Source of the DNA: Eledone cirrhosa
Taxonomy: Eukaryota
Direction: 5' to 3'
Assembly (NCBI GenBank): GCA_964016885.1
Contig: OZ024741.1
Location: 147,932,001-147,996,000, forward strand
DNA: 64,000 bases
A program made the translations under genes and the position numbers. The notes under the pieces were generated by a model, which made no database searches, was not told where the DNA came from, and saw only the letters and a list, made by a program, of their open reading frames with translations. Every line of letters begins with the position of its first letter. Position 1 is the stretch's first letter. Positions 4,811 to 64,000 of the stretch are shown here, piece after piece.

Positions 4811-6490
4811 CATGAAAGTCAATCTGGTTTTCGTGCTGGACGCGGCACTACTGATATGATCTTCTCAGCTAGACAGGCTCCAGAAGTGCATGGAACAAGG
4901 CTTGGATCTGTATCAGGTTTTTGTCGATCTGACAAAAGCTTTCGATACTGTTAACAGAGATGCATTATGGAAGGTTCTCCAGAAACTTGGTTGCCCTGAT
5001 AAGTTCCTTGCTTTAGTTAGGTCTTTCCATGACGACATGAAGGCTTGGATTAATGTCGGAGGTAACATGTCGGAGCCTATCTCGGTAAAAAATGGAGTGA
5101 AACAGGGGGATATTCCAGCACCGACCCTGTTTGCCATATACTTTGCAATGGTTTTTTGTATTGCATTCAAGAATTGCGAGCATGGTGTTTACATCCGATA
5201 TCGAACCTCAGGCAGCATATTTAACATCAGGCGCTTTGCTGCAAAGACAAAAGTATTTACATCAATCATAAGAGACCTCTTGTATGCAGATTATTGCGAT
5301 CTTGTAGCGCACACAGAGAGTGATATGCAGCACATTTTGAATGCATTTTCTGACGCTTGCACTGCCCTAGGATTGACTGTCAGTCTCAAGAAAACCGTCG
5401 TCATATACCAACCTGCCCCTGGTAAGCAGTACACTGAACCAAATATCTATGTGTATGGCAAACGACTTGGAGTGGTTGATCAGTTTGTCTACCTGGGAAG
5501 CACTGTCAATCGATACAGCAACCTTGACAGTGAAATCTCACTTAGGATTAGGAAAGCAAGTGATGCTTTCGGAAAGCTAGAAAGGCGACTCTGGGGTCGG
5601 CGAGACATATGCAGGAGGACAAAGGTAAAGGTGTACAGGGCATGTGTGCTCTCTTGTCTTCTTTATGCCTGCGAGATCTGGGTCACATATCGACACCACC
5701 TTAAGCAATTGGAGCGTTTCCATCAGATGTGTCTCAGACGGATCCATGGCGTTCACTGGAGGGACCACATCAGTGTTGTCGAGATTTTGGAAAGCTCTAT
5801 GTGTGACAGTATAGAAGCTCTTGTGCTTAAGCAACGACTCCGTTGGAGTGGTCACCTTGCCAGGATGAAGGATTCTAGAATACCAAAACAACTCTTTTAT
5901 GGAGAGTTGGTTAAAGGAAAACGACCGCCACATAAACCAAAAAAGAGGTATAAGGATTCCCTGAAAGCCTCTCTGAAAGACGCTAACATCTCTGCTGATA
6001 CATGGGAAAATATTGTTGCTGATCGTAATAAATGGAGAAAGACTGTATATGAGGGAAAAGTTGCCTTTGAGGCATCTCGAATCACATACGAGAAAGTAAA
6101 GCAGGATGTGAGGAAGGGCATTGCTGTTGCACTTCCAGACGGCGAGGGTCCTCCTATGGTGCTGACATGCAGCGTCTGTGCGAGACTCAGCCTAAGCAAA
6201 GCTGGACTCGAAAGTCATCTTCGCAGTCATAAAGTAAGACCAGTGGTTGACTACCAGGCTGCTGTTGGAGATGCTACTCATCATGCTTGCCAAACATGTG
6301 GTAGAGAATGTAAATCAGCAGGAGGGCTCAAGCGACATGCAAAAGTACATGAACTCCAACCACAGCCGACTATTCCCAGTGAATGTTTTGGTTGCCGACT
6401 CTGTGCAAGACATTTTAGATCATTGGCTGGGCTAAAAAGCCACATTCGATCGCAGCGCTGTTAGTTGCTATCGTGTGTGTGTGTGTGTGT
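4811..6490 (+). mobile_element. 5'-truncated RTE-clade LINE (RT, C-terminal region, three C2H2-type fingers)
   Basis: [17 protein letters not shown], then a frameshift into the 524-aa ORF 4890-6464: FVDLTKAFDTVNR, GVKQGD, LLYADY (YADD mutated), FVYLGS, RLRWSGHLARM, and three CxxC..H motifs; ends in a (TG)n tail. Confidence 0.92.
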
Positions 6491-7889: not shown

Positions 7890-8089
7890 NNNNNNNNNNN
7901 NNNNNNNNNNNNNNNNNNNNNNNNNNNNNNNNNNNNNNNNNNNNNNNNNNNNNNNNNNNNNNNNNNNNNNNNNNNNNNNNNNNNNNNNNNNNNNNNNNNN
8001 NNNNNNNNNNNNNNNNNNNNNNNNNNNNNNNNNNNNNNNNNNNNNNNNNNNNNNNNNNNNNNNNNNNNNNNNNNNNNNNNNNNNNNNNN
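7890..8089. other. Assembly gap (200 N) inside a (GA)n tract
   Basis: Run of N. Confidence 1.
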
Positions 8090-9487: not shown

Positions 9488-12400
9488 TCAAAGGACAAGA
9501 TCTTCACTTGGTCTTAGCATGATCCTCGGAATGAGAACCGATTCCTCTCTGCCTGGGAGTTTAGCTTCTAAAACTCTTCCGTTAATCAATCTCTCAACAA
9601 TCAATCTGGTACCATTGCAAAGACCCATTTTATGATTGATATTTCTAAGCAATATAATCGGCATACCCTTTTTCAACCTCAAAATATGTGAGGGAAATCC
9701 GGGTATTTGAAGTGAATTCAGATACTCAGTCGGAACATCTATATTGTTCTGCTGATTAGGCTCCATTGCATCCGCACTGACGGTCCACCATTCCTCTCCA
9801 GGAAATATTCCGGCTATTTGTGAATTTATTTCATCGACCGTTTCATTCGTATGAGTTAGAATAACGCGTTCCGATATCCAGGAGATATTCTGCCAAAAAG
9901 CATTCAAATTAGAGAACACAGAGTCAATCAATGCTTGGCGGTCCAGTGGCATGACCAAATGGTCTGGGATTCTTACAGTCTGATTATCACCAACGTGTGG
10001 CAATTCATCGTTTCCCAACTGCATCAACCATCGGCCGTATGTCTCAGCCTCTTCGTTTTTCCCGAACATACGAAGTCGCATATTATCGTGTAATCGCAAA
10101 ACTCTGAAATGGCGCCACAACGGGGACTTTTTAAGACATGCATTGACAATTTGCGCTCTTTGAGCATTCCTAACAATTGGTAGCACCTGTCTGAAATCGC
10201 CACCAAGAACGATAGTCTTACCACCGAATGGCAGGTCACTACTGCAGATATCTCTCAAAGTTCTGTCCAATGCCTCCAGCAAATATCTGTGTGCCATTAG
10301 AGCCTCGTCCCAAATAATCAGAGACGTATTGCATATAAGGCCCGCGAGTTCACTTTGTCCTGTAATGTTACAGACACTCAACTCATCCGGAGCCAATGGA
10401 GCCTTGAAGCAATATTGAGCAAAACAATAGCTTTCATCAAATTTTCATCATCGACCTGAAGATGCCTAAAATCATCAGCCATAATTCCCCAATGGCGTTC
10501 AAATAACTCTCTTGGATCAGCAGGATTGCAGACTCCTAAAATCGTGACAAACAACTGCCTTATTTGAGCTGGCATCTGTATTCCTGCAGCTTCCATGGCG
10601 TTATTCCATTCAGCGTCATCCTGAAAGAGTCCCAGATGCTGACACACAGCCTGGTATGTTTCATATTCCACGCCATTGGTTGTTTTCAAATCAGCGAAGC
10701 TCTGTTTACCTCTCGAAAAATCATTATGCAACAGAATTCGGAGATAACACACATCACCAGATGCGGGATGAACATTACAAACCCGTCCAATAGTCATGAA
10801 TCTCAACTTTTGTTTACTATCTTCCATTTCTTTCCTTTCTTATCCCACGTATAGCGCGAAGGGAAATCGCAGTAGAGTTGCCTTTGATCCAGGTTCAAAG
10901 CATGTTCCCTATTATGCTTGAACCACTCAGTAAATTCCGTCTTAGAAGGTGGTGCGTTAGCAATTCTTTCGACATCTTCTAGTGTCCTGAAAACAGACCA
11001 TTTGCCTATTCTCTAAGTGAACCGTCAGTTTCTGAACGCTGGGTTTGCATTCATTGAGATCAAAATCGGACAATCTCCAGCAAACTTCGCTAGATCCAAT
11101 CGAGCGAACATCCTGGAACCTGCCAACTTCATCTCCTTGGTTCGCCTCCTCATTCCTGACATTGATCATTGCCCGATCATGGCCTTTGTAAACATATTTG
11201 AATAGATATTTGCAAGCTTTCACTGAGCTACAAATTTCCACATTAATATGACAACGATATTTCATAATCAAATATGGATTGTATGGCACAACCCATTGAT
11301 TTGTAACCTGTCGACCGTTTACATTTTCGACCAAACCGCCATCGGCAGGCGACCGTCTTCTGTATGAGGGATGAGCATCCCCATCGTTCCAGGAAGTGTT
11401 CGTGACAAAAGATTTCGGAAAGTGCTTACTGCATTGGCCATTTTTTCATACAATGCGCTTTCCGATTTGCCACTCCGCATTGGTTGTGCACCATTGACTT
11501 TGCCACTAAGTTGCGTAGTGCCTCATTCTCCGGCAGATCAGCACACACAACGCTGTCGACATCCTCAGTCCATCTCAATTTGCAATCTCTATGTAAAATG
11601 ATCAGCAAATGTGCATGTGGCAATCCCCTTTTTTGGAATTCAATTACATACGTAAAAGCAACTATAGATCCAAAGATTCCCCCTTTTTCCACATCATCCA
11701 TTATCTTTTTCAGATATCCTTTGAATCTCTTGCCACAATATTAGGACGGACCTTTGGCTGTTGTCCTGCCAAAAGTGCATCCTTAGTATCAGTCCATTCA
11801 GGATTGCCAGTAACCGTTATAAACAAATCTGGCTTTCCAAACTTTCTGACAATAGCCATTGCATCCTGATAGCGAATGTTCATATATCTCGGGCCGCCGA
11901 TGAACGACGATGGCAAAATGATGCGTCGACCAATTTGTTTGTAATTGGCATCATCGGCCGTTATCGCATCTTGTATATTATTATACAATTCAGCTCTGAT
12001 ATGTTGCTGATGTGTAGCTATATAATTTAGCCTTTGATTTTTTATCTTTGTGAATGCCATACAACAGTATTCCTGGAACAATCTGCTGGCTTGAAATAGC
12101 GCATTTCTCTGTTGATTCCTCTCGTTCAAATGGAACGCGTAAAAGTCGCGAATCGAATTATTGTGTCTATTGCCGCCTCCCTGTTGATGCTGATTCTCAT
12201 GATCATCTTTTGGGAATAAAAGAACATAATGCAATGGATCGTATGCCCTATTTGACTCATTGATAGTCTTGAGACCACTATCTCTGCGATTGAGGACGAT
12301 ATCTCTCGATCGAGGCTTATCGTCCATCAACACAGCAACTTCACGAAATCCTTCAGGGGCATTATATCACTGTTCGTGTTGATTTCTTGGCACTGCGTCT

Positions 12401-13401
12401 GCCTTAATCACCAATGTTTGCTGCTGAACATTTTGCAGTTCAGCCACCAACATGAAATCCATAACATAAGGATTACACTGTCTAAGCCATGATTGCAAAT
12501 CACGGATCAAATCACTTAACATTTGCCGTTCAATTTCAGTTATATTTCCCGGCAATTTCATCCAACCGATCCTGATATCCTCCTCCGATTCACTATAATC
12601 TGGATCGTTAACGTAAATTTGAGCGAATCGAGGCCTCTCTCCTGGAGTAACTTCTAAATTACCGATACAATGATACAAACGGCCTTGAATGACTACATTC
12701 GGTTGCAATGTTCCACTCTCAAACATCTCACTAACTCTCTGCGATGCTAAAGCTAATGAATTGTTAATTTGCCGCGAATATTTGCGCAGTAAACTACCTC
12801 GGTCTCCTTGATCACCCCACATACTTAGTATTTTAAACTCCGGTGACTCCTCATCATCCGGCATTCGCAAGGGTTCTAGTTGAACTGCTCCTTTATGACA
12901 GCACATTGAGGTCCACGTCTTTTCGTACCTCCAAAGCAATGCTCCACAATGTGGACACTCTGCTCGTACACCAATCTGAAAATGACACGGTTGCCATGAT
13001 CCATTTTTAATATCCCCCGTTCGCCTTCTAGCCTCTTTACTGGAATGAGGAGCACTTTGGCGACACATTCTCTGGACTTCTGTATTGCGCTGGCGCTGTT
13101 CAGCCAGCTCCTCTTCATCCATCGCAGCAGGCCATTGATGCTGAATTCCGGCCATCTGCTGATGATGCTCAGCCAGTTCGTCTTCAACCATTGCAGCACG
13201 CCGTCGCTGCTTGACTCCAGTGTTTCGTTGGCGTTGTTCAGCCAGCTCCTCTTCATTCATGGCGGCACGTCTTCGCCTCTGAAGTTCGGCGTTCTGAAGT
13301 TCAGCCCGTTTTTCTTCATTCCTGGCTGCACGCTGTCGCCGCTGTAGTTCACTGTTTGATAAATTCGAATTGCTTTTATTATCAGTATTCATTTCGAGCA
13401 A
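9488..13401 (-). mobile_element. Decayed autonomous-type Helitron Rep-Hel (repeat-rich N-terminus, Zn finger, Rep HUH, partial Pif1 helicase)
   Basis: CPHCGALLW..CCHKG, YDPLHYVLLFP, GRRIILPSSFIGGPR, KPDLFITVT, EFQKRGLPHAH, VVPYNPYL, HINVEIC, KYLFKYVYKG, IIWDEA, GGDFRQVLP, LRNINHKMGLCNGTRL; several stops and frameshifts. Confidence 0.95.
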
Positions 13402-13985: not shown

Positions 13986-14760
13986 TTAATTGTAAGTTGT
14001 GATGTTGCTGTTCCACTCATGTTTTCTATTTAATTTTGGTTGGAGTTCATTTATGTTTATTGCCTCTGTGATTTGTCTAAACATTGCGTCTTTTCTGTGT
14101 GTAGATTCTATTTTTATTTCTATGTTCTCTAATTTACCCTTATGTTCTATTTTAGCATGTTGGTAGAGTACAGATGATTCTTTACTATCTTGAAGGTCTC
14201 GCCAGTGTTCATTTATCCGTTCCCCTATACTACGAGCTGTCTCACCTATGTACACTATATTTTTATCTCTACGTTGTCCTTCAGTACATCTTATACTATA
14301 TACTACATTTCTAGTTTTACAGTTAATATGGGGGCTTAATTTACTGATTATACATTTCTTATCTATACAGGGAGGTCTTTGAAAAGGGTATGTATTGCTA
14401 ATAAGTGTTTTTATGGAGGTACCTGGTCTTTCTACTATCTTAATATTGAGTTTATGTTTATCTAGGGCCTTTCTAAATTTGTAAGCTAATTCACCTCTAG
14501 GTGTATCTATAAACATTATCGATAAACATTACACTCTGGTATTTATGGCTATCATACCATGAGTTTATTCTATTAGCCTTATTCCTAGTTCTTTCTATTC
14601 TATTCCAAAATTTGCTCCTATACAAGGAGCAGGTCCCATTTGTGTCGTTATTTAACATTTTTTCCCATTTGGTTCTGGCTCCTCTATATACTCTGATTTT
14701 ATCTCTCTGATTGTAACCAGAGAACTGCATACGGTGGATGAAGTGTTGTATGTGTCTCTC
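13986..14760 (-). mobile_element. Penelope-like element 3' fragment (RT linker plus GIY-YIG endonuclease)
   Basis: NVVYSIRC...IVYIGETARSIGERINEH...RQITEAININELQPKLNRKHE; upstream MQFSGY linker; frameshift near 14515. Confidence 0.85.
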
Positions 14761-14761
14761 T

Positions 14762-15010
14762 AGTTCTTCGTCAGCGAGGTCCTCGGCCAGAGAGGTCGAA
14801 CATGACGTTGCCCGTCTGAGGAAGGTGCCCCGCGAGTTGGGGTGGCTGTTGCAGCGGGTGTCGCGGGCAATTGTCTGTGGGAAAGCTCTTGCAGTCTTTT
14901 CCGTGGGGCGCAGCTCCAACACCGCCACGCCCTGCGCCCAGAGCCCATCATCTTCCTCTTCCCTCTTCCATTTTCTTTTACACTAGAGCTCTTGCTTTTC
15001 CCTTCCTTTT
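14762..15010 (+). mobile_element. CRE-like non-LTR 3' end remnant, 5' side cut by the Penelope fragment
   Basis: PRELGWLLQRVSRAIVCGKALAV, homologous to the RLE tail at 3890-4180. Confidence 0.6.
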
Positions 15011-15061
15011 CCATTTTTAAATATTGATAAAGTTATTTTCACTGAAAAAGAAAGTAAAAAT

Positions 15062-15180
15062 AATTGTTTCTACTTTTGGCACAAGGCCAGCAATTACTCA
15101 GTACATTACTGGTACTTTATTTTATCGACCCCGTAAGGATGAAAGGCAAAGTTAACCTCGACTGGATTTGAACTCAGACC
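15062..15180 (-). mobile_element. SINE fragment ~180 bp upstream of GPCR1 (also at ~33735, ~47110, ~61410)
   Basis: Same SINE body as 2200-2385. Confidence 0.8.
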
Positions 15181-15360
15181 AAAAAAAGTAAAAATAGTAA
15201 TGTGTTAACTATATTGACGTAATCTGCGAGAGTAATGCGTAAGGTTTCAAACAGATTCTTTCATTAAAAAGTTGATACACAGCGTTCTCTATTTGTGATT
15301 CAACCAGATATTTTCGAAGCTGCAAGAACTAATTCAAAAATTTGGAAGAAAGAAAAAAAA

Positions 15361-16380
15361 ATGGATGAAAACCTTAATCCCCTCCACTGTGCTAATACGT
15401 TAGAGGAGTTAAATGCTGGACATGTGAATGTTTTGTTTCCAGTAATAATGTATCTGGCAATTCTGATGGCGGTTGGATCAGTTGGAAATATCTTAGTATC
15501 TTATATATACTATTTTAAATTTCAGAAAAATACCACAAATTTGTTCATTGTAGCACTTTCGATGTGTGATTTTTTTACTTGTACAATATGCATGCCAATG
15601 GAAATTGTGTATCTACATCATCCACACACATTTATCAGTAATGTTGCTTGCCGCCTCATGCGTTTTATTGTTGGTCTAATGGTAATCACTTCAGCATTTA
15701 TTGTATTCGTTATAGCACTTAATAGATACTCACTTGTGTGTCGACCTCTTAAAAAACAAATTTCTCAAAAGCAGTCAAAGATAATCATATTATGTGTACC
15801 AATCATCGCCGGTATAATGAACCTGCCAGCACTTTTTCTATACAGCACAAATAAACTGAAGGTAACAGGCTGTGGATATATTGGAAGTAGGTGTAGCACG
15901 ACTGATCATTTGCACGGTGCAAAATTGATTACGTTCTATTATGGTTTATTGACGTTTGTTTTTATTTCTCTGTTTATTTATCTCATGACAATTTATATCG
16001 TAATTGCAATACATATTCAGAAGCTTTCCATCAGGATGAACCGTAGAACCATAGCATCAGAAACTGAAATGACTTTTGCTTCACAAAATAGTGAAAGACG
16101 ACATAGGAATCGTTCATTGAACCCATCTAAAACCAATAAACTTTTGTTCACCATCACTGTCATCTGGATTATGAGTTATTTACCTCACCTATTTACCGCA
16201 ATATTCTGGAGGGGGAACAAACCAACTTCCATTCACACCGAAGGATCTGAATATTTTGTAATTTATATGTTATTAATGTATTCTGTTTACTTCAATTGTG
16301 GTGTAAGCCCATTTTGTTATGGAATTTATAATACGAAGTTTCGTATTGAACTACTGCAAATATTTCGCATTAATACCTGA
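15361..16380 (+). CDS. Class A (rhodopsin-like) GPCR, copy 1, 339 aa, single coding exon
   Basis: Seven hydrophobic segments; TM1 GN, TM2 LSMCD, TM3 Cys and NRY, ECL2 Cys, TM6 SYLP, TM7 SPFCY, helix-8 NTKFR; ATG at 15361. Confidence 0.93.
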   Translation: MDENLNPLHCANTLEELNAGHVNVLFPVIMYLAILMAVGSVGNILVSYIYYFKFQKNTTNLFIVALSMCDFFTCTICMPMEIVYLHHPHTFISNVACRLMRFIVGLMVITSAFIVFVIALNRYSLVCRPLKKQISQKQSKIIILCVPIIAGIMNLPALFLYSTNKLKVTGCGYIGSRCSTTDHLHGAKLITFYYGLLTFVFISLFIYLMTIYIVIAIHIQKLSIRMNRRTIASETEMTFASQNSERRHRNRSLNPSKTNKLLFTITVIWIMSYLPHLFTAIFWRGNKPTSIHTEGSEYFVIYMLLMYSVYFNCGVSPFCYGIYNTKFRIELLQIFRINT

Positions 16381-17499
16381 ATAACATGGTGAATTTCTTG
16401 AAAATAAATACAAAAGATCTCAGAATGTACTGTAACAAAAGTAAGCAAAAAAGGTTGTTGGTTATATGAGAGAATGTATGAATTACAAGTGAATTATGTA
16501 AGGTTAGTCTTCGAAAAGATTATAGAAAGAAAGAGTTGTGTATGAATGCGATGTGCGTGTGTTTTGTTCGTGTGTATGAATGTGAGACTAACGGAGGTTA
16601 CGGATGTTATCCTACCACCCTGCTCGATTGGCTTTACCCGTAAAATCTCTCCTATGATTATTTCCTTAACTTTCTAGCCACATTACCCAAATGGCAAATA
16701 TCCTTTGGATGGTTGCTTGTTTCCTGCATTTGTACAAAGTCTGCACTGGCTAATTCCCATGATACGCTATATCTAACATGAGCAGAATAACATCAAACAA
16801 AAGGGAAGTAAACTTGCCACAAACAAACAAAACGTAAATATATACCCGTAAAATCTCAGTCTTTTCACATATCTATCTCGACAAACACTCGTAATAAGGA
16901 GACAATGCAACATATGCTAAGATACTAGAATATGAAATCAACAATGAGAAGTAGTCTCTTCTGTATGAATGAGAGCTACTTCTCATCACATACATAGCCA
17001 GAAATTTACTACGGGTTGTAGTAAATTCTATTAAAAATATGTATCTAATATGATGAAGCAATAAAGAAGTTTTGATTTATTTTTCTAATGAAGAAAAAAT
17101 CGGTTCGGTACAATGTTATTTTCACACTTGTCTTGTTGATTGGTTTTGTTAGAATTTTGAAGGTGAAATTTGCTTTTACTATGATTTAAAAAATGTAATT
17201 TATACGAATATGGACTTGAAAACCATCGTAAATTATTCGTTTTCTGTGGTTTCACGTCGAAGAATTCCATCTTAGAGACGGTGTAATAATGAAAATTTGC
17301 CTAAAATCTTTCATTCCATTTGACAATTTTTGCGAGGAATTGCCAAAAGGTTTAAATATGTCCTATTTTAGCCATTGTGTTCTCATTGTTACTATATTTA
17401 CATCAAATCTTCAATTATTTCTCAAATTATCAATACAAGTATTTTGCAAAACAAACCATCATAAACCAATCTTCTCCAACCATATCTACTCTCTGCCTC

Positions 17500-18215
17500 A
17501 TCTTCCCAATCCTCAACACTAGTACTAAGTGTCTTCAGGTTGCCTTTGACAACATCCATGAAACATTTCCTGGGTGTCTGTCTGGGGCGTTGATCAAGAG
17601 TTCACCCTTCTTCGTTCACTTATTCCATCGGGTCCTGTCAGAAGCAACCGTTTCTAAATGATCTGGCTGGATCCCTAAGCGAGAACAGCGAAGCTGTTGG
17701 GCTCGGCGTAATGTTGCTCAGGAGGTGGTGTGTACAGGACCTTCGTCTTTTCTGTGTTGATAGAAAGCCCCAAAGCAGTCCATGCCCCAGGTCCATGATT
17801 GCCTGCATGTCCTCCTCGGTATGAGTTATAAGGTCTGCGCCATCATCATAGAGGAACTCTCTGATGAGAGACCAGAAAGTCTGCCAAGGTGAAAACCCTA
17901 ACCGTGGTCCTGAAACACAGATACACACCAGCATCGCAATTCTGAAACGTATACGTGAGAGTCACTGCAAAGAAGATAGAGAACAGAGTTGGTGCTAGGA
18001 TGTTCCCTTGCTTAACTCCATTGTCGATGGAAATGTGTTCAGGCAGAGAACCATTGAAGTTAAGCCTCTTTTAAAACTTGGTACAAAGACATGCAAAGTT
18101 CTAGTCATTGCTCCTGCAGCTGGCGAAGTTCAGGTCCGTTGTACCCTGCTCTACCTAAAGCAGAATTGTGTCTCCGGAATCACTCAGGGGCAAATTGCCT
18201 TGGTAAGCCTATTAC
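17500..18215 (-). mobile_element. Rearranged RTE LINE fragments (homologs at ~36230-37490 and ~49620-50550)
   Basis: LIREFLY(A/D)DDADLITHTEEDMQAIMD and GVKQGNILAPTLFS on the minus strand. Confidence 0.8.
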
Positions 18216-22021: not shown

Positions 22022-22960
22022 ATGTGTGTGAATAGAGAGATACAAAGTGACTATATGACATATAAAATGCCACACCTGGGCGAGAATACCACCAACGCTA
22101 TCCGCAAGGCTATACGGAGGGAGGGCCTCGACATCCACCTGGCCCACTCGATCCCCTCCCTGCGAAGATGCCTCTCCAGGAAACCCGGGAAATCAACTGA
22201 CGCGTGCTCTCTCAGAGACTGCCCGATGCGCCATGCGAACTGTTACCTACGCACATACGTCGTGTATAAGGTAGAATGTAACAAATGCAACCAATACTAT
22301 ATAGGTAGCACAATCCGGCCGTTGCACATGTGGATCAAGGAACACACTAAAACCAGGGCCTCGTCTTTCCGGAAACACATAGCCAAATGCGGAAACAAAG
22401 ACGGAAGGCCCATTGTCACAATTCTAGCGACAGAAAGAAACGTCGGCACGTTACGTATCAAGGAAGCATTTTGGATCAAACGCCTAGGGCCACAATTAAA
22501 CAACCGATCCGAGAGAAGCGAAATGAGGTGTTTGGTTTAAGTTAACAAACGATCAGCAACACACGCGCACACACAAGCGAGACAGCAACACACGCACACA
22601 CACACACACATTAACACTCCACCATACGAACATACTACACTGCCAATACAAGGCAACAACACACGCACACACACACACACACACAGTAACATTCAACAAA
22701 CAGGCAGAGAATGGACTGACAGCTAGCGCCACCCCACTCCCACAATTGAAAGAACTACTTCGGCCGCTGACCTCTGCCTAACCGACCCCATTTCACGCGC
22801 ACGCGCGCTCTGCTGAATACCTCAGATATTCAAAACAACGAACAGCAGAGGATACGTTTCGCACCTTTCCGACAGACAACCTTTCCCCCACCCCGCATAA
22901 TACCCCCAGTTGATGGATGTGAATCCGAAATATATAGGGACAATTGAATCTCTCCCAAGG
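22022..22960 (+). mobile_element. Penelope-like element 3' fragment (GIY-YIG ORF plus 3' region); full extent only in unit A
   Basis: VVYKVECNKCNQYYIGSTIRPLHMWIKEH...LRIKEAFWIKRLGPQLNNRSE; hammerhead-like motif downstream. Confidence 0.85.
22903..22940 (+). ncRNA. Degenerate type-I minimal hammerhead ribozyme motif
   Basis: CCCC-CAGTTGA(consensus CTGATGA)-T-GGAT GTGA ATCC-GAAA-TATA-TA-GGG; stem II closed by a GNRA loop; lies 3' of the Penelope GIY-YIG ORF. Confidence 0.55.
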
Positions 22961-23749: not shown

Positions 23750-26462
23750 AATATGAATCCGCGAGTTACCAAGCACCCATGCGAAGCTTTAATTCAGAAA
23801 CAGGAAGCATACACACACCCTCGCAAAAATTTACCCTTCCCCACGAATGTTGGCAAATGCCCAAAACTCCAAGTTGGAACCATCAATGTAAGCACAGTGA
23901 AAGGAAGAGCAGGAGAAATCGTAGATATGCTAGAGTGAAATGAAATTGATGTATGCTGTGTGCAAAAGACTAGATGGAGAGGAGAGTCTGCTAGAGTCAT
24001 TGTAGGCAAAAGTCAGTGCTACAAATGTTTCTGGGTGGGAAATGACAATGGGATGGGTGATGTAGGTATACTATTAGCTGACAAATGGTTAAATAAGGTA
24101 ATCTCAGTGAACAGGGTGAACGCAAGAATCATTAAACTTAGACTAGTCCTGAATAAAACAATTACCACAATAATATAAGCTTACGCACCCCAATCGGGGT
24201 TGCCAGACGAACTTAAGGATAGGTTTTACGAGTCCCTAATGCACACTACTGCCCTAACAAACGACAATGACTTCCTAATCATTGCAGAAGATTTTAACGC
24301 ACATGTAGGTAAACACCATGACGGCTTCTATAGAGTCAATGGAGGGCACAGATTTGGCATAAGAAATGAAGAAGGCTTCAGGCTTCAAGAATTCTGCGAC
24401 GCCAATCATATGTCGATATGTAACACAAAATTCAAAAAAACCCGACAACCATCTGATCACCTATAGATCAGGGAAGCATTCTAGTCAAATAGATTTTATC
24501 CTCATCAGAAGACGAGACAGATGGATGGTCGTGAACACAAAAGCCTTCCCTAGTGAGAAATGTACCTCCCAACATAACTTAGTTGTCAGCGACCTCGCTG
24601 TCAGAACTAGACGAACTTGGAAACAGAAGGCAACCTGGAGAAGAAAATCTGGAAGCTGAAAGACCCCTCAGCCAGTTACAGATTTAAAGATATTTTACTC
24701 GACGCCTACGACAGTAAAGAAGAACAGATAGAGACATTCAATGTAGAAGAACACTGGGAGTTCCTAAATAATAACTTACTAAAGGCGACGGGCGAGATTT
24801 GTGGCTGGAGCAAGACCACAGGCAGGAGGAGAGTGACTTGGTGGTGGAACAATAAGATAGATAAGGCAGTTAAGGCTAAGCGACAGGCATGGAAAGAATG
24901 TAAGAACGGAGGAAGCAGAGTACATTACATAGAGACCATGGGGGAAGCTAGGCGACAAGTATACTTAGCTAGAAGGGAAGCGGATGATAGAAATTTCGTC
25001 GATCTGGAGAAAGCCTTTGACAGAGTCCCTCGTGCTATAGTCTGGTGGGCTCTTAGAAAACTAGGAGTAGATGAATGGCTTGTGAAAGCTGTACAAGCCA
25101 TGTATAGGGGAGCAGTCAACAAAGTTAGGATTAGCAATGACTATAGCGAGGAATTTAGCATACAGGTCGGTGTCCACCAGGGCTCTGTTCTTAGCCCTCT
25201 CCTGTTCATCATAGTTTTGCAGGCACTAGCGGAGGAGTTTAAGACCGTATACCCATGGGAACTCCTGTATGCAGATGACCTCACGCTTATAGCTGAATCT
25301 ATGGTAGAACTAGAGAACAAATTCCAAACATGGAAGCAGGGACTAGAAAGAAATGGTCTCAAATTCAACCTGACAAAGACTAATGTCTTTGTAAGTAGAC
25401 GAGAAAGCAGAATCCAAATCCCCTCAGGGAAATGACCTTGTTCAGTATGTAGGAAAGGTGTAGGTAGGAACTCCATCCTCTGCCCCAAATGCAAACAGTT
25501 GGTACACAAGAGATGTAGTGGGATCTCGGGAAGCTTAACTAAGAATGTAGGCTTCACCTGTAGCAGCTACGCCGTGACAGCAAGCAGCAAACAGCCACAG
25601 GAAACAAGCACCACCAAACTCTGGGAGAGCTCTGTAGAAACAGTAGTACCTAGGTGACCGAATTAGCAGCGGAAGTGGGTGTTCGGAAAGTACAATAACT
25701 AGGGTAAGAACGGGATGGAAGAAGTTTAGGGAGGTACTGCCACTGCTAGCTGCAAAAAACTTTTCCCTCATAATGAAAGGCAGACTGTATGATGCGTGCA
25801 TATGAACAGCAATGTTACATGGTAGTGAGACCTGGGCGCTGTCTGTAGAAGACTTGCGTAGATTAGAGAGAAACGAAGCCTGCATGCTCCGATGGATGTG
25901 TAATAGTAATATACGCGAACGGCAAAGCATGAATGAATTGAGAGAGAGACTGAGCATAAGAGGAATCAAATGCTGTGTGCAGGAGAGGTGGTTGTGTTGG
26001 TATGGACATGAGGCGTATGAAGGGTGACAGCTGCATAAAAAGGTGCAGAGCACTAGAAGTCGATGGAAGCCGCGAAGTGGGGAGACCCAAGAAGACCTGG
26101 GATGAGGTGATAAAAGCCGATCTTATCTAATTCCACCTCTCAAAGGCGATGACACACGACCGTGCCCTCTGGCGTCACGCAGTAATGACGAAGACCCGAA
26201 CCCCACGGGTACAAACCGAAGCTGAAGCATATAGACAATATGCCCCACACCCTCCCACTGCAAAGTGGTTGTGGAGGTGCCACGGAAAAAAGCACCCAGC
26301 ACTCACTGTAAATGAGGTTGGTGTTAGGAAGGGCGTCCAGCCGTAGAAATCAAGCCAGAATCAGTTCCCATATGAGCAAGACGAGGTCAGCCAACCGGAC
26401 ACTGCTCACAATAGGACAACCCGTCTAACCCATGCTAGCGTGGAAGAATGGACGTAAAACGG

Positions 26463-33049: not shown

Positions 33050-33700
33050 TCTCCATTTTCAATTTTCCGCCTCCATCACCAACACCCCTGAATTAAATGC
33101 CCGCCTCTCCTCAGCCTTCCACCCTACGGGAAGTCAATCAGTGCCACTCGTGCTACACGCGCAACAGGCGCAAGAAAGGAAAGAACTGCTCCAACTGTAG
33201 CAGCTTTTTCCACCTCTTGCGTCAAACTCACCCGATGCGCGTTGGAATCCTTGCACCGGTGGCACTGCCCGCCATACCTATCCACCTGTCAGTTTCGACA
33301 GTGCCGGCTGGCAACAGGCGAAGCTCCCAGTGAGGTTCGGTAGCCTCGGTTTCTGACCCGCTTCAGATCCGACTCTACCGGCCTATCTCTCCTCAATCTC
33401 CTCCAGTAGCGTTCTCGTCAGCGAAGTCCTCGGCCAGAGAGGTCGAACATGACGTTGCTTGTCTGAGGCAGCAGCCCCGCGAGTTGGGGTGGCTGTTGCA
33501 GCGGGTGTCGCTGGCAATTGTCTGTGGGAAAGCTCTTGCGGTCTTGTCTGTGGGAAAGCTCTTGCGGTCTTGTCCGTGGGGCGCAGCTCCAACACCACCA
33601 CGCCCTGCGCCCAGAGCCCATCATCTTCCTCTTCCCTCTTCCATTTTCTTTTACCCTAGAGCCCTTGCTTTTCCCTTCCTTTTCCGTTTTTAAATATTGA
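33050..33700 (+). mobile_element. Internally deleted CRE-like element (PHD-like 5' part joined to RLE 3' tail); copies at ~46500-47060 and ~60800-61360
   Basis: QCHSC..KNCSNCSSFFHLSCV..WHCP joined to ..GWLLQRVSLAIVCGKALAV. Confidence 0.65.
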
Positions 33701-34033
33701 TAAAGTTATTTTCACTGAAAAAGAAAGTAAAAATAATTGTTTCTACTTTTGGCACAAGGCCAGCAATTACTCAGTACATTACTGGTACTTTATTTTATCG
33801 ACCCCGTAAGGATGAAAGGCAAAGTTAACCTCGACTGGATTTGAACTCAGACCAAAAAAAGTAAAAATAGTCATGTGTTAACTATATTGACGTAATCTGC
33901 GAGAGTAATGCGTAAGGTTTCAAACAGATTCTTTCATTAAAAAGTTGATACACAGCGTTCTCTATTTGTGATTCAACCAGATATTTTCGAAGCTGCAAGA
34001 ACTAATTCAAAAATTTGGAAGTAAGAAAAAAAA

Positions 34034-35059
34034 ATGGATGAAAACCATAATCGCCTCCAATGTGCTAATACGTTAGAGGAGTTAAATGCTGAACATGTGA
34101 ATGTTTTGTTTCCAGTAATAATGTATCTGGCAATTATTATGACGCTTGGATCAGTTGGAAATATCATAGTATCTTATATATACTATTTTAAATTTCAGAA
34201 AAATACCACAAATTTGTTCATTGTAGCGCTTTCGTTGTGCGATTTTTTTACTTGTACAATATGCATTCCAATGGAAATTGTGTATCTACATTATTCATAT
34301 ACATTTTTCAGTGATATTGTTTGCCGCCTCATGCGTTTTCTTGCTGGTCTAATGGTAATCTCTTCAGCATTTATTGTATTCGTTATAGCACTTAATAGAT
34401 ACTCACTTGTGTGTCGACCTCTTAAAAAACAAATTTCTCAAAAGCAGTCAAAGATAATCATACTATGTTTACCAATCCTCGCCGGTTTATTGAACCTGCC
34501 AACAATTTATATATACAGCTCACAAAAACTGAAGATACCAGGCTGTGGATATATTGGAAGAAGGTGTAGCATGAATGAACATTTGCGCGGTACAACCTAT
34601 GTTATATGCTATTATGGTTTAATGTTGGTTATTTTAATTTCTCTGTTTATTTGTCTCATGGTACTTTATATCGTAATTTCAATACGTATTCAGAAGATTT
34701 CCATCAAGATGAACACTAGAACCGTAGAAGTAGAAACTGAAAGTATTTTTGTTTCTGGAAATAGTACAGGTATTAAACGACCGAGGAGGCGTTCATTGAA
34801 CCCATCTAAAACCAATAAACTTTTGTTCACCATCACTTTCATCTGGATTATGAGTTATTTACCTCACCTATTTACCGCAATATTCTGGAAGAAGAACAAA
34901 CAAACTTCCATTGAATCCCAATCAGCTGAAGATATTGTAATTTATATGTTATTAATGTATTCTATTTACTTTAATTCTGCTGTAAACCCATTTTTTTATG
35001 GAATTTTTAATACGAGGTTTCGTGATGAAATAATGAAAATAATTCGTATTAATACATGA
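34034..35059 (+). CDS. Class A GPCR, copy 2, 341 aa
   Basis: Intact 7TM ORF with GN, LSLCD, NRY, SYLP, NPFFY; an in-frame TAA just upstream fixes the ATG start. Confidence 0.93.
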   Translation: MDENHNRLQCANTLEELNAEHVNVLFPVIMYLAIIMTLGSVGNIIVSYIYYFKFQKNTTNLFIVALSLCDFFTCTICIPMEIVYLHYSYTFFSDIVCRLMRFLAGLMVISSAFIVFVIALNRYSLVCRPLKKQISQKQSKIIILCLPILAGLLNLPTIYIYSSQKLKIPGCGYIGRRCSMNEHLRGTTYVICYYGLMLVILISLFICLMVLYIVISIRIQKISIKMNTRTVEVETESIFVSGNSTGIKRPRRRSLNPSKTNKLLFTITFIWIMSYLPHLFTAIFWKKNKQTSIESQSAEDIVIYMLLMYSIYFNSAVNPFFYGIFNTRFRDEIMKIIRINT

Positions 35060-47406: not shown

Positions 47407-48441
47407 ATGGATGAAAACCTTAATCCCCTCTACTGTGATAAGAGATTAGAGGAGTTAAATGCTGGACATGTGAATGTTTTGTTTCCAGTAATAATGTATC
47501 TGGTAATTATTATGATGCTGGGATCAGTTGGAAATATCATAGTAGCTTATATATACTATTTTAAATTTGAGAAAAATACCACAAATTTGTTCATTGTAGC
47601 GCTTTCGATGTGTGATTTTTTTACTTGTACAATATGCATTCCATCGGAAATTGTGTATCTACATTATTCATATACATTTTTCAGTAATGCTGCTTGCCGC
47701 CTCCTGCGTTATACTGTTGGTCTAATGGTAATCACTTCAGCATTTATTGTATTGGTTATAGCACTTAATAGATACTCACTTGTGTGTCGACCTCTTAAAA
47801 AACAAATTTCTCAAAAGCAGTCAAAGATAATCATACTATGTTTACCAATCCTCGCCGGTATAATGAACCTGCCAACACCTTTTACATACAGCGCACAAAA
47901 TGTGGAGGTAACAGGCTGTGGAAATATTGGAAGTAGGTGTAGCCTCACTGACAATTTGCGCGGTTCACCCTTTGTAGTATTCTATTATGGTTTATTGTTG
48001 TTTATTTTTATTTCTCTGTTTGTTTTTCTCATGATAATTTATATCATAATTTCAATACGTATTCAGACGTTTTCCATCAGGATGGAAAATAGAACCATAG
48101 AATCAGAAACTGAAAGTACTATTGCTTCTGGAACTAATACAGGTATTAAACGACTGAGGAAGCGTTCATTGAACCCATCTAAAACCAATAAACTTTTGTT
48201 CACCATCACTTTCATCTGGATTATGAGTTATTTACCTCACCTATTTACCGCAATATTCTGGAAGAAGGACGAAAAAACTTTCATTGAGACCCAACCAGCT
48301 GAAGATATTGTAATTTATATGTTATTAATGTATTCTGTTTACTTTAATTGTGCTTTAAACCCATTTTTTTATGGAATTTTTAATACGAAGTTTCGTAGTG
48401 AACTACTGCAAATATTACACGTTAATACATTAATAACATAG
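47407..48441 (+). CDS. Class A GPCR, copy 3, 344 aa
   Basis: Intact 7TM ORF with GN, LSMCD, NRY, SYLP, NPFFY; ATG at 47407. Confidence 0.93.
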   Translation: MDENLNPLYCDKRLEELNAGHVNVLFPVIMYLVIIMMLGSVGNIIVAYIYYFKFEKNTTNLFIVALSMCDFFTCTICIPSEIVYLHYSYTFFSNAACRLLRYTVGLMVITSAFIVLVIALNRYSLVCRPLKKQISQKQSKIIILCLPILAGIMNLPTPFTYSAQNVEVTGCGNIGSRCSLTDNLRGSPFVVFYYGLLLFIFISLFVFLMIIYIIISIRIQTFSIRMENRTIESETESTIASGTNTGIKRLRKRSLNPSKTNKLLFTITFIWIMSYLPHLFTAIFWKKDEKTFIETQPAEDIVIYMLLMYSVYFNCALNPFFYGIFNTKFRSELLQILHVNTLIT

Positions 48442-61157: not shown

Positions 61158-64000
61158 GTTCTCGTCAGCGAAGTCCTCGGCCAGAGAGGTCGAACAAGAC
61201 GTTGCTTGTCGCTGGCAATTGTCTGTGGGAAAGCTCTTGCGGTCTTGTCCGTGGGGCGCAACTCCAACACCGCCACGCCCTGCGCCCAGAGCCCATCATC
61301 TTCCTCTTCCCTCTTCCATTTTCTTTTACCCTAGAGCCCTTGCTTTTCCCTTCCTTTTCCGTTTTTAAATATTCTAAAGTTATTTTCACTGAAGAAGAAA
61401 GTAAAAATAATTGTTTCTACTTTTGGCACAAGGCCAGCAATTACCCAGTACATTACTGGTACTTTATTTTATCGACCCCGTTAGGATGAAAGGCAAAGTT
61501 AACCTCGACTGGATTTGAACTCAGACCAAAAAAAGTAAAAATAGTCATGTGTTAACTATATTGACGTAATCTGCGAGAGTAATGCGTAAAGTTTCAAACA
61601 GATTCTTTCATTAAAAAGTTGATACACAGCGTTCTCTATTTGTGATTCAACCAGATATTTTCGAAGCTGCAAGAACTAATTCAAAAATTTGGAGAAAGAA
61701 AAAAAAATGGATGAAAACCTTAATCCCCTCTACTGTGATAAGAGATTAGAGGAGTTAAATGCTGGACATGTGAATGTTTTGTTTCCAGTATTAATGTATC
61801 TGGTAATTATTATGATGCTGGGATCAGTTGGAAATATCATAGTAGCTTATATATACTATTTTAAATTTGAGAAAAATACCACAAATTTGTTCATTGTAGC
61901 GCTTTCGATGTGTGATTTTTTTACTTGTACAATATGCATTACATCGGAAATTGTGTATCTACATTATTCATATACATTTTTCAGTAATGCTGCTTGCCGC
62001 CTCATGCGTTATACTGTTGGTCTAATGGTAATCACTTCAGCATTTATTGTATTGGTTATAGCACTTAATAGATACTCACTTGTGTGTCGACCTCTTAAAA
62101 AACAAATTTCTCAAAAGCAGTCAAAGATAATCATACTATGTTTACCAATCCTCGCCGGTATAATGAACCTGCCAATACCTTTTACATACAGCGCACAAAA
62201 TGTGGAGGTAACAGGCTGTGGAAATATTGGAAGTAGGTGTAGCCTCACTGACAATTTGCGCGGTTCACCCTTTGTAGTATTCTATTATGGTTTATTGTTG
62301 TTTATTTTTATTTCTCTGTTTGTTTTTCTCATGATAATTTATATCATAATTTCAATACGTATTCAGACGTTTTCCATCAGGATGGAAAATAGAACCATAG
62401 AATCAGAAACTGAAAGTACTATTGCTTCTGGAACTAATACAGGTATTAAACGACTGAGGAAGCGTTCATTGAACCCATCTAAAACCAATAAACTTTTGTT
62501 CACCATCACTTTCATCTGGATTATGAGTTATTTACCTCACCTATTTACCGCAATATTCTGGAAGAAGGACGAAAAAACTTTCATTGAGACCCAACCAGCT
62601 GAAGATATTGTAATTTATAGGTTATTAATGTATTCTGTTTACTTTAATTGTGCTTTAAACCCATTTTTTTATGGAATTTTTAATACGAGGTTTCGTAGTG
62701 AACTACTGCAAATATTACACGTTAATACATTAATAACATAGTGAATTTCTTGAAAATAACTACAAAAGATCTCAGAATGTACTGTAACAAAAGTAAGCAA
62801 AAAGGGTTGTTGGTTATATGAGAGAATGTATGAATTACAAGTGAATTATGTAAGGTTAGTCTTCGAAAAAATTATAGAAAGAAAGAGTTGTGTATGAATG
62901 CGATGTGTGTGTGTTTTGTTCGTGTGTATGAATGCGATGTGAGTGGGTTTTTTTTTTTTTTGCTTTTGTTTTTTCGTGTGTATGAATGCGAGACTAACGG
63001 AGGATACGGATGTTATCCTACCACCCTGCTCGATTGGCTTTACCCGTAAAATCTCTCCTGTAATTATTTCCTTAACTTTCTAACCACATTACCCAAATGG
63101 CAAATATCCTTTGGATGGTTGCTTGTTTCCTGCATTTGTACAAAGTCTGCACTGGCTAATTCCCAGGATACGCTATATCTAACATGAGCAGAATAACATC
63201 AAACAAAAGGGGAGTAAACTTGCCACAAACAAACAAAACGTAAATATATACCCGTAAAATCTCAGGTTTTTCACACATCTATCTCGACAAACACTCGTAA
63301 TAAGGAGCCAATGCAACATATGCTAAGATACTAGAAAATGAAATCAACAATGAGAAGTAGTCTCTTCTGTATGAATGAGAGCTACTTTTCATCACATACA
63401 TAGCCAGAAATTTACTACGGGTTGTAGTAAATTCTATTAAAAATATGTATCTGATATGATGAAGCAATAAAGAAGTTTTGATTTATTTTTCTAATGAAGA
63501 AAAAATCGGTTCGGTACAATGTTATTTTCACACTTGTCTTGTTGATTGGTTTTGTTAGAATTTTGAAGGTGAGATTTGCTTTTACTATGATTTAAAAAAT
63601 GTAATTTATACGAATATGGACTTGAAAACCATCGTAAATTATTCGTTTTCTGTGGTTTCACGTCGAAGAATTCCATCTAAGAGACGGTGTAATAATGAAG
63701 ATTTGCCTAAAATCTTTCATTGCATTTGACAATTTTTGCGAGGAATTGCCAAAAGGTTTAAATATGTCCTATTTTAGCCATTGTGTTCTCATTGTTACTA
63801 TATGTACATCAAATCTTCAATTATTTCTCAAATTATCAATACAAGTGTTTTGCAAAACAAACTATCATAAACCAATCTTCTCCAACCAGATCTACTCTCT
63901 GCCTCATCTTCCCAATCCTCAACACTAGTACTAAGTGTCTTCAGGGTGCCTTTGACAACATCCGTGAAACATTTCTTGGGTTTCTGTCTGGGACGTTGAT
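61158..64000 (+). repeat. Tandem segmental duplication unit D (partial, continues past the window)
   Basis: Nearly identical to 46858-49700 at offset 14,300. Confidence 0.92.
61707..62741 (+). CDS. Class A GPCR, copy 4, 344 aa
   Basis: Intact ORF, six substitutions from copy 3. Confidence 0.92.
   Translation: MDENLNPLYCDKRLEELNAGHVNVLFPVLMYLVIIMMLGSVGNIIVAYIYYFKFEKNTTNLFIVALSMCDFFTCTICITSEIVYLHYSYTFFSNAACRLMRYTVGLMVITSAFIVLVIALNRYSLVCRPLKKQISQKQSKIIILCLPILAGIMNLPIPFTYSAQNVEVTGCGNIGSRCSLTDNLRGSPFVVFYYGLLLFIFISLFVFLMIIYIIISIRIQTFSIRMENRTIESETESTIASGTNTGIKRLRKRSLNPSKTNKLLFTITFIWIMSYLPHLFTAIFWKKDEKTFIETQPAEDIVIYRLLMYSVYFNCALNPFFYGIFNTRFRSELLQILHVNTLIT

What the first reader, a model, noticed from the sequence alone, without database searches (positions are those of the whole stretch)
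15781..15970. Ligand-facing region far more divergent than flanking non-coding DNA (diversifying selection signature)
By manual count, copy 1 15781-15970 versus copy 2 34454-34643 (TM4-ECL2-TM5) differ at about 34 of 190 nt, nearly all amino-acid changing. The 5' flanks (15061-15340 vs 33734-34013) differ at about 1 of 280 nt. The TM3-end/ICL2 stretch ALNRYSLVCRPLKKQISQKQSKIIILC is identical in all four proteins, and SLNPSKTNKLLFTIT-IWIMSYLPHLFTAIFW differs at one site only. ECL2 reads STTDHLHGAKL, SMNEHLRGTTY and SLTDNLRGSPF. Inference: ligand specificity is diversifying while G-protein coupling is conserved.
Basis: partly seen in the sequence, partly recalled or inferred. Interest (0 to 1): 0.85.

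Follow-up and report, generated by a model that had tools for sequence, protein, structure and literature searches.

The report
Fast-evolving octopus testis-type receptor cluster
These tandem octopus receptor genes have changed their amino acids several times faster than their silent or non-coding DNA, on the inside of the cell as much as the outside, and they are likely male-germline receptors because their closest studied relative is expressed almost only in testis.

Summary
Counts confirmed: 34/190 versus 1/280. The genes are single-coding-exon class A GPCRs, 4 of 12 intact members of a tandem cluster in an octopod genome. Positive selection is robust. Whole-gene dN/dS is 2.7-4.7 among copies 1-3 and 2.06 over ten paralogues (M2a vs M1a LRT 220); neutral simulations give 0.92, maximum 1.34 of 40. 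In the block dN=0.26, dS=0.05, so it is not an old unconverted patch. Two corrections. First, the 1/280 flank is unrepresentative: the unit's non-coding divergence is 2.5%, and that flank is a high-copy repeat plus a conserved upstream element. Second, the signal is not ligand-side only: intracellular loops change as fast as extracellular ones (N rate 0.27 vs 0.26), and the predicted deep pocket core is invariant. The closest relative with expression data, O. bimaculoides Ocbimv22013760m, is a Ritschard et al. 2019 'group 2' GPCR with 99.7% testis expression. Best reading: sexually selected male-germline orphan receptors, not environmental chemoreceptors. Expression in this species and the ligand are untested.

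The parts
15361..16380 (+). GPCR copy 1 (c1), 339 aa, one coding exon, class A 7tm_1
   Evidence: AlphaFold model pLDDT 81.8 with 7 TM helices, ECL2 beta-hairpin and helix 8
34034..35059 (+). GPCR copy 2 (c2), 341 aa
47407..48441 (+). GPCR copy 3 (c3), 344 aa
61707..62741 (+). GPCR copy 4 (c4), 344 aa; 6 nt from c3, all nonsynonymous, including loss of Pro79 (2.59); CDS identical to c5, 8.4 kb further on outside the window
15781..15970 (+).
15841..15921 (+). ECL2 (codons 161-187), positively selected; Cys171 and Cys178 invariant in the clade
15922..16008 (+). TM5 membrane part (188-216): selected sites 188, 191, 195, 202 fall on one helical face, inferred outer; Tyr193/Tyr194 invariant in ten paralogues
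   Evidence: face inferred from recalled generic numbering
16009..16122 (+). TM5 extension and ICL3 (217-254): 30 N, 2 S among c1-c3, as fast as ECL2; intracellular
16216..16245 (+). ECL3 (286-295): highest rate, 12 N and 1 S among c1-c3
16330..16377 (+). Helix 8 / C-tail (324-339): 11 N, 2 S among c1-c3; intracellular
15709..15795 (+). Slow stretch, codons 117-145 (TM3 end, ICL2, TM4 start): 0 N by the script's count, 1 S among c1-c3
16120..16209 (+). Slow stretch, codons 254-283 (TM6 including W269, Y273, P275, H276, W283): 1 N, 0 S among c1-c3
15058..15185 (.).
   Evidence: (summed contig depth in the millions)
15186..15345 (+). Proximal upstream element, 91-100% identical at 12 cluster loci (97% in L008, whose protein is 48% identical); 17 further matches elsewhere in the genome
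14763..33410 (+). Tandem unit carrying c1 (next units start near 33411, 46858 and 61158); collinear non-coding divergence 2.3-2.5% among c1-c3

Best explanation
The genes are tandem duplicates of an orphan peptide-receptor-like class A GPCR whose amino-acid sites have diverged several times faster than silent and flanking sites, and they likely act in the male germ line or sperm, where post-mating sexual selection would favour each new copy becoming different. SHOWN: segmental tandem duplication; dN far above dS and above flanks in the young copies and on 16 of 17 branches of a ten-gene tree; fast sites in ECL2, ECL3, outer TM4/TM5, ICL3 and helix 8; slow ICL2, TM6 and pocket core; membership in the clade of an O. 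bimaculoides gene that is 99.7% testis-expressed. INFERRED: testis expression in this species; a peptide ligand whose core is read by the invariant E2.61, R3.29, Y5x39/40, Y6.48, H6.51, M7.39, Y7.43 while the variable rim tunes affinity and selectivity; ICL3 and helix 8 changes tune signalling strength, arrestin/kinase handling or trafficking rather than G-protein class; sperm competition or female-tract/egg signals as the driver. My odds by step: positive selection 0.93, testis/sperm expression 0.65, sexual selection as driver given that 0.7-0.75.
For: Pairwise ML omega (F3x4) c1-c2 3.55, c1-c3 2.71, c2-c3 4.70, all p<=1e-3, similar with F61 and F1x4. Trio M0 3.58; M2a vs M1a LRT 45.6, 38% of sites at omega 9.9. 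Ten paralogues M0 2.06, M2a LRT 220; still omega 2.0 and LRT 97-107 on 282 gap-free columns without ICL3 and ECL3. 59 of 60 within-cluster pairs have omega>1, while all 9 pairs with outside genes L015/L020 are <1 (pairs not independent). Neutral simulation with the flank-derived spectrum: mean 0.92, SD 0.19, max 1.34 in 40 of 40 runs. Signal survives removal of multi-hit and adjacent differences in the trio (omega 2.75, 3.17, 7.74). Divergence rises at the CDS edges and falls after them. Reciprocal best relation with O. bimaculoides XP_014772081.1/A0A0L8HIH6; clade support 100/99. That gene is group 2, testes 0.997 of expression; four more group 2 genes are 0.94-0.997 testes (PMC6408891 Table S2). 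Sperm competition and egg-capsule sperm-attractant peptides are described for octopuses (PMC6712556 passages).
Against: No expression data for this species. Testis expression is transferred from one gene at 38-46% identity; I tied only that one of the five testis genes to the clade by sequence, and another group 2 gene on the same scaffold (Ocbimv22006267m) is retina/sucker/skin-expressed, so expression can shift within group 2. Sexual selection does not by itself predict fast intracellular loops. Only about 11% of sites fall in the purifying class, and some copies carry changes at normally conserved positions (c4/c5 P79T; NRY or ARY for DRY), which also fits partial relaxation. Pocket positions are by recalled generic numbering, not by model coordinates. 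Posterior probabilities are naive empirical Bayes from my own code, not PAML BEB.
Confidence: 0.5

Rival explanations
1. Environmental chemoreceptor expansion: the copies detect different outside molecules and the ligand-facing surface is diversifying.
For: Tandem, single coding exon, lineage-specific; lophotrochozoan class A expansions are treated as candidate chemoreceptors with variable extracellular TM ends (PMC11886862 sections 13 and 22); outer TM halves more selected than inner (p=0.0007); second atlas hit is named 'Chemosensory receptor A'; 14 of 41 pocket positions vary among c1-c3.
Against: Closest relative with data has zero expression in sucker, skin and brain and 0.997 in testes; deep pocket core invariant in ten paralogues; intracellular loops as fast as extracellular. 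Nath et al. used entropy rather than codon models (no 'codeml' or 'nonsynonymous' in the main text).
Confidence: 0.2
2. Peak of divergence under gene conversion: flanks are homogenised, the coding region is protected by selection against conversion, and the amino-acid differences are old rather than fast.
For: For c6, synonymous divergence at same-amino-acid codons is 0.10-0.17 against 0.035-0.047 in flanks (p<=5e-4); older paralogues also show dS about 1.5-3 times local flank divergence; the 1/280 flank is below the unit mean (p=0.007); the proximal 160 nt is 97% identical between c1 and L008. The mechanism is described for opsins (PMC3924837 passages).
Against: In c1-c3 clean dS (7/159, 6/166, 4/167) does not differ from flanks (p 0.10-0.58); inside the variable block dN far exceeds the block's own dS (p=0.007 pairwise, 0.048 with synonymous-favouring paths); informative sites show no clustering (20 switches vs 22.6 expected, p=0.21) and the best identical run has p=0.015 uncorrected among 6 pairs; the repeat insertion marks the same c1-c6 clade as the coding tree. 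It may act in addition for older copies but does not produce dN>dS.
Confidence: 0.08
3. Relaxed selection or decay of redundant copies, with mutation bias or multi-nucleotide mutations mimicking selection.
For: Small purifying class; broken members in the cluster (L013, L014, L017, L018); omega near 1 within the L010/L011/L013/L014 subgroup (0.77-1.65, none significant); adjacent differences exceed independence (18 vs 13, 25 vs 13.5).
Against: Relaxation caps omega at 1; simulations never exceeded 1.34; ten ORFs are intact over a tree of 4.0 substitutions per codon where 4.9% of point changes make stops, i.e. tens of stops expected (rough); signal remains without multi-hit codons; 19 of 21 other paralogue pairs in this genome give omega<1.
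Confidence: 0.04
4. Conflict other than mate signalling: the receptors act among haploid sperm or spermatids (drive/suppression, rival-ejaculate sensing) or evade a parasite or toxin, so change is favoured over the whole exposed surface on both sides of the membrane.
For: Selection on both faces with a fixed pocket fits a surface-wide arms race better than ligand tuning; testis-specific relative; very recent amplification c3/c4/c5 with 6 of 6 differences nonsynonymous against 7/6618 downstream and upstream flank sites (p=0.004).
Against: No partner identified; no segregation or population data; purely inferential.
Confidence: 0.18

Closest known systems
Cephalopod-specific class A GPCR expansion 'group 2' of Ritschard et al. 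2019 (PMC6408891), e.g. O. bimaculoides Ocbimv22013760m / A0A0L8HIH6 / XP_014772081.1
   Same: Same clade (100/99), reciprocal best relation, shared N-terminal Cys10 and ECL2 CG.IG..C motif, tandem arrangement, branch-level positive selection reported there.
   Different: Here a separate, lineage-specific burst of 12 intact genes (11 in the tree form their own clade, 100/99), with whole-gene omega 2-4.7 and 49 of 339 sites at posterior >0.95; the paper found no site at BEB 95% in any group. No public protein is above about 44% identity.
Molluscan 'cholecystokinin receptor type A-like / orexin receptor-like' orphan GPCRs
   Same: Top atlas cluster (0.97); database names of the nearest relatives; fold and sequence nearest to vertebrate peptide receptors (ghrelin, orexin, CCK, PrRP).
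   Different: Names are automatic and inconsistent among orthologues (orexin, neurotensin, CCK, vasotocin, nematocin); no ligand is shown. The conserved sister gene L020 is 82% identical to its O. vulgaris orthologue while this clade is about 40% between species.
Lophotrochozoan lineage-specific chemosensory class A expansions (Nath et al. 2025, PMC11886862)
   Same: Tandem, lineage-specific, variable extracellular ends.
   Different: That paper reports no TM3-ECL2 disulfide in such expansions whereas C97 and C178 are invariant here; it does not mention testis; cephalopods have few such expansions.
Rapidly evolving reproductive proteins such as abalone sperm lysin, and Conus toxin superfamilies (recalled, not looked up)
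   Same: Whole-gene dN/dS above 1 with conserved structural cysteines.
   Different: Those are small secreted proteins; this is a seven-helix receptor diversifying among paralogues within one genome.

Membership tests
Class A (rhodopsin-like) GPCR | 7tm_1 profile above the curated cut-off | tested here: met
   97-100 bits vs cut-off 30.5 for the 3 of 4 copies scanned
Class A (rhodopsin-like) GPCR | Seven-helix fold plus helix 8 | tested here: met
   AlphaFold model, pTM 0.78; Foldseek top hits all class A peptide receptors
Class A (rhodopsin-like) GPCR | Signature residues N1.50, D2.50, C3.25-C45.50, (D/E)RY, P6.50, NPxxY | tested here: met
   N43, D70, C97, C178, R122, P275, P317, Y320 present; variants NRY for DRY, no W4.50 or P5.50, SPFCY in c1; numbering recalled
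Ritschard group 2 cephalopod GPCRs | Falls in the clade of listed group 2 genes | tested here: met
   Clade with A0A0L8HIH6 cluster representative, 100/99; L020 and L021 group with group 2 genes A0A0L8HXU1-cluster and A0A0L8HTH5
Ritschard group 2 cephalopod GPCRs | Testis-specific expression (testis subclade) | not testable with these tools
   No RNA holder listed for this species; inferred from the O. bimaculoides relative only
Orexin / CCK receptor orthologues | One-to-one orthology and activation by the peptide | tested here: inconclusive
   Only 16-22% identity to solved human receptors in the structural matches, with no one family preferred; activation not testable
Environmental chemoreceptor expansion | Expression in sensory epithelia | not testable with these tools
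   Relative shows 0 in sucker and skin
Environmental chemoreceptor expansion | Selection concentrated on pocket-lining residues | tested here: not met
   0 of 39 pocket TM positions vs 11 of 165 others at PP>0.95; intracellular rate equals extracellular; pocket list recalled
Genes under positive selection | omega>1 by likelihood-ratio test, robust to codon frequencies, alignment, multi-hit codons and recombination | tested here: met

The most novel reading that the evidence does not exclude
This cluster is a sperm-borne receptor repertoire in an arms race: an octopus-lineage family of GPCRs that reads female-tract or egg peptides (or rival ejaculate), keeps one binding core, and has sustained whole-gene dN/dS near 2 from 99% down to 48% protein identity, remodelling both its outer rim and its signalling loops. 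It would supply candidate receptors for octopus sperm-attractant peptides and a molecular handle on cryptic female choice and species barriers in cephalopods.
Probability: 0.22. Interest if true: 0.82.

Novelty: new variant of a known kind. Interest (0 to 1): 0.52.

Why it matters
Expanded GPCR families usually show selection at a few sites against an overall dN/dS below 1 (own knowledge). Here the whole-gene ratio is above 1 on nearly every branch of a 10-gene tree, which is the level expected of gamete-recognition or venom proteins. The clade is already known to be testis-expressed in another octopus with unknown function, so the cluster gives a short, testable list of receptors for how octopus sperm sense the female tract, and shows that a 'chemoreceptor-looking' tandem array can be reproductive. 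The family and a weaker selection signal were published in 2019, so this sharpens rather than opens the case.

Tried and rejected
No RNA holder listed for the c1 coding sequence; not evidence either way. RAD-seq runs X4 and X5 gave almost no depth on the coding region, so no polymorphism test (4 of 6 listed runs laid). Assembly error: rejected for the block by an identical 381-nt contig in X1 and X2. c3/c4/c5 as mere alleles: contig depth on shared segments is about 5-7 times that on c1-unique sequence and the c3-type variant at 15708 has about twice single-copy depth; rough only, since the tool warns that depth is no copy number. A-to-G (editing-like) bias: A/G share 0.24 in CDS vs 0.28 in flanks, rejected. 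Genome-wide cap on dS: rejected, dS reaches 0.5-9 in other pairs. Alignment artefact: rejected. Word-indexed homologue searches were insensitive (2, 10 and 3 hits), so the other four testis genes of O. bimaculoides could not be retrieved and placed. No Rfam match in 14700-17700. Earlier scan findings: none by place, sequence or words. Literature searches listed no paper on ligand or function of these testis GPCRs or on a receptor for the octopus sperm-attractant peptide; most were seen as listings only, and subscription papers and the Dryad files of PMC6408891 were not visible. C. minor rows of Table S2 were seen only in part (29 of 161), with no group 2 row among them.

Full report
OBSERVATION. 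32 of the 34 are nonsynonymous (pN 0.219, pS 0.047; Fisher p=0.007). The invariant TM3-end/ICL2 stretch, the single TM6 difference and the ECL2 strings are as stated. A 381-nt short-read contig covering 15760-16140 is identical to the assembly in runs X1 and X2, which may be the assembled sample.

WHAT THE GENES ARE. Four single-coding-exon ORFs (15361-16380, 34034-35059, 47407-48441, 61707-62741) sit in tandem units of 13-19 kb filled with transposon debris. Three were scanned and match 7tm_1; the model has seven helices, an ECL2 hairpin and helix 8 and its nearest solved folds are class A peptide receptors at 16-22% identity. The own-genome search gave 86 matches; 12 intact genes (c1-c6, L007-L012) and several broken ones (L013, L014, L017, L018) lie in about 350 kb around the window. 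The conserved relative L020 is 82% identical to an Octopus vulgaris protein and 72% to an Argonauta protein, so the genome is an octopod's. No public protein exceeds about 44% identity to c1.

THE BENCHMARK. Collinear non-coding DNA of the units differs by 229/9289 (c1-c2), 214/9112 (c1-c3) and 256/10576 (c2-c3), i.e. 2.3-2.5%. About half of that flank is a high-copy SINE-like insert (15058-15185) and the rest is a 160-nt element 91-100% identical at 12 cluster loci. With the proper benchmark the contrast shrinks from about 50-fold to about 7-fold but stays decisive (p=2e-19). In 100-nt bins divergence rises at the start codon and drops after the stop.

SELECTION TESTS (own GY94 code, no PAML available). 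Pairwise omega is 3.55, 2.71 and 4.70 for c1-c2, c1-c3, c2-c3, with dS 0.028-0.057 and dN 0.13-0.16; F61 and F1x4 agree. Trio: M0 3.58, M2a vs M1a and M8 vs M8a LRT 45.6. Ten paralogues (c1, c2, c3, c6, L007-L012; c4 and c5 left out as near-identical to c3, broken genes left out): M0 2.06, M2a vs M1a LRT 220, 31% of sites at omega 4.8, 11% near 0. On 282 gap-free columns without ICL3, ECL3 and the ends, omega is 2.0, LRT 95-107, and 16 of 17 branches exceed 1. 59 of 60 within-cluster pairs exceed 1, even at 48% protein identity (dS 0.28), whereas 9 of 9 pairs with L015 or L020 are below 1 (pairs share branches). Controls: neutral simulation under the flank spectrum gave mean 0.92, max 1.34 in 40 runs; dropping multi-hit and adjacent differences leaves omega 2.75, 3.17, 7.74 in the trio but weaker and in 2 of 3 cases non-significant values against c6; no recombination mosaic among c1, c2, c3, c6; 19 of 21 other paralogue pairs of the wider family give omega<1, the other two being near-identical pairs with no synonymous difference.

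RESULTS AGAINST A SIMPLE PICTURE. For c6 and older paralogues synonymous divergence is 1.5-3 times the flank divergence, so some flank homogenisation, flank constraint or inflation of dS by multi-hit codons is present; in the trio, synonymous-favouring parsimony also gives a synonymous tree length of 0.082 against 0.035 for flanks, although same-amino-acid codons alone do not differ from flanks. Whichever clock is right, dN exceeds both. The L010/L011/L013/L014 subgroup evolves at omega near 1.

WHERE THE CHANGES ARE. Among c1-c3, nonsynonymous rates are ECL3 0.51, ICL3 0.34, TM5 0.33, ECL2 0.30, helix 8 0.29, against ICL2 0, TM6 0.05, TM2 0.06; all extracellular parts 0.260 (43 N in 69 codons), all intracellular 0.271 (42 N in 66). 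The most divergent 63-codon window starts at codon 186, not 141 (52 vs 43 N). Over ten genes, 49 of 339 sites reach posterior 0.95: 15 extracellular, 23 intracellular (ICL3 alignment is gappy at that depth), 11 in TM, all in outer halves. None is among 39 pocket-facing TM positions; E81, R101, Y193, Y194, Y273, H276, M306 and Y310 are invariant, although 14 of 41 pocket positions do vary among c1-c3, mostly at the TM4/ECL2/TM5 rim. The pocket list and generic numbers are recalled, not from a call.

FUNCTION. The best outside hit of c1 is O. bimaculoides XP_014772081.1, whose 11 best hits in this genome are cluster genes; the tree joins them at 100/99. Its UniProt twin A0A0L8HIH6 is Ocbimv22013760m in Table S2 of Ritschard et al. 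2019 (PMC6408891; I read parts 1-4 of 6 of the text, supplement 1, and rows of supplements 2 and 3): group 2, 0.997 of expression in testes, 0 in sucker, skin and brain. Four other group 2 genes are 0.94-0.997 testes, one is retina/sucker/skin, and the relatives of L020 and L021 are broader. The paper reports branch-level selection, no individual sites, and unknown function. A review (PMC6712556, abstract and passages) describes sperm competition and egg-capsule sperm-attractant peptides in octopuses. Other papers: PMC11886862 abstract, sections 13 and 22 and a word search; PMC3924837 two passages; PMC8976471 passages; the rest as listings.

MECHANISM. Unequal crossing-over copies the unit; each new receptor is pushed away from its sisters at the outer rim, ICL3 and helix 8 while the fold, the binding core and the G-protein core are kept. 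I infer male-germline or sperm expression, a peptide ligand from the female tract, egg or ejaculate, and post-mating sexual selection as the driver (overall 0.5). Rivals: environmental chemoreception 0.2, other genetic or parasite conflict 0.18, conversion peak 0.08, relaxation 0.04.

VERDICT. Real and strong positive selection in a known cephalopod testis GPCR clade, in a lineage-specific burst of unusual strength; new variant of a known kind; interest 0.52.

Noticed in passing
L039 vs L040 (G000:C24, about 6.66-6.67 Mb): A second young tandem GPCR pair of the wider family differs at 23 nt in 1098, all nonsynonymous (p=7e-5), against 23/3646 in selected flank blocks; the first 130 codons are identical and L039 has DHY for DRY. 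One longer block around the gene is more divergent and was not in that flank count.
   Followed up: partly
window 47407-48441 vs 61707-62741, and L031: c3 and c4 differ at 6 nt, all nonsynonymous; c4 and c5 lie in an 8361-nt duplication with one mismatch. c4/c5 lose Pro79 and regain Arg303 found in older paralogues. c5 could be a very recent copy or an assembly duplicate.
   Followed up: partly
window 15186-15345: Upstream element far better kept than the coding sequence (97% c1 vs L008); contains TGACGTAA and an AG at 15306-15307 that may be a splice acceptor; diverged copies occur at 17 other places, and the 4 of 17 examined have no adjacent receptor sequence. Candidate promoter or co-opted repeat.
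   Followed up: partly
window 15388-15390 and 15871-15873 (Cys10, Cys171): An N-terminal Cys and an extra ECL2 Cys are invariant in the cluster, L015 and the Octopus relatives but absent from L020: a likely clade-specific second disulfide.
   Followed up: no
L015, L020, L024 (G000:C2, about 371.9-372.05 Mb): A divergent clade member (L015) lies beside the conserved relatives about 224 Mb from the cluster, suggesting the cluster arose away from the ancestral site.
   Followed up: partly
L037 vs L038 (G000:C6): Near-identical tandem GPCR pair with 3 differences, all nonsynonymous; not significant.
   Followed up: partly
window 4890-6464, 9488-13392, 22022-22540, 24938-25435: Reverse-transcriptase (with C2H2 fingers), PIF1-helicase (Helitron-like) and GIY-YIG fragments; 200-N gap at 7890-8089.
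   Followed up: no
L034 (about 31-35 kb past the window end): A 3.7-kb minisatellite with a 39-nt period follows c6.
   Followed up: no
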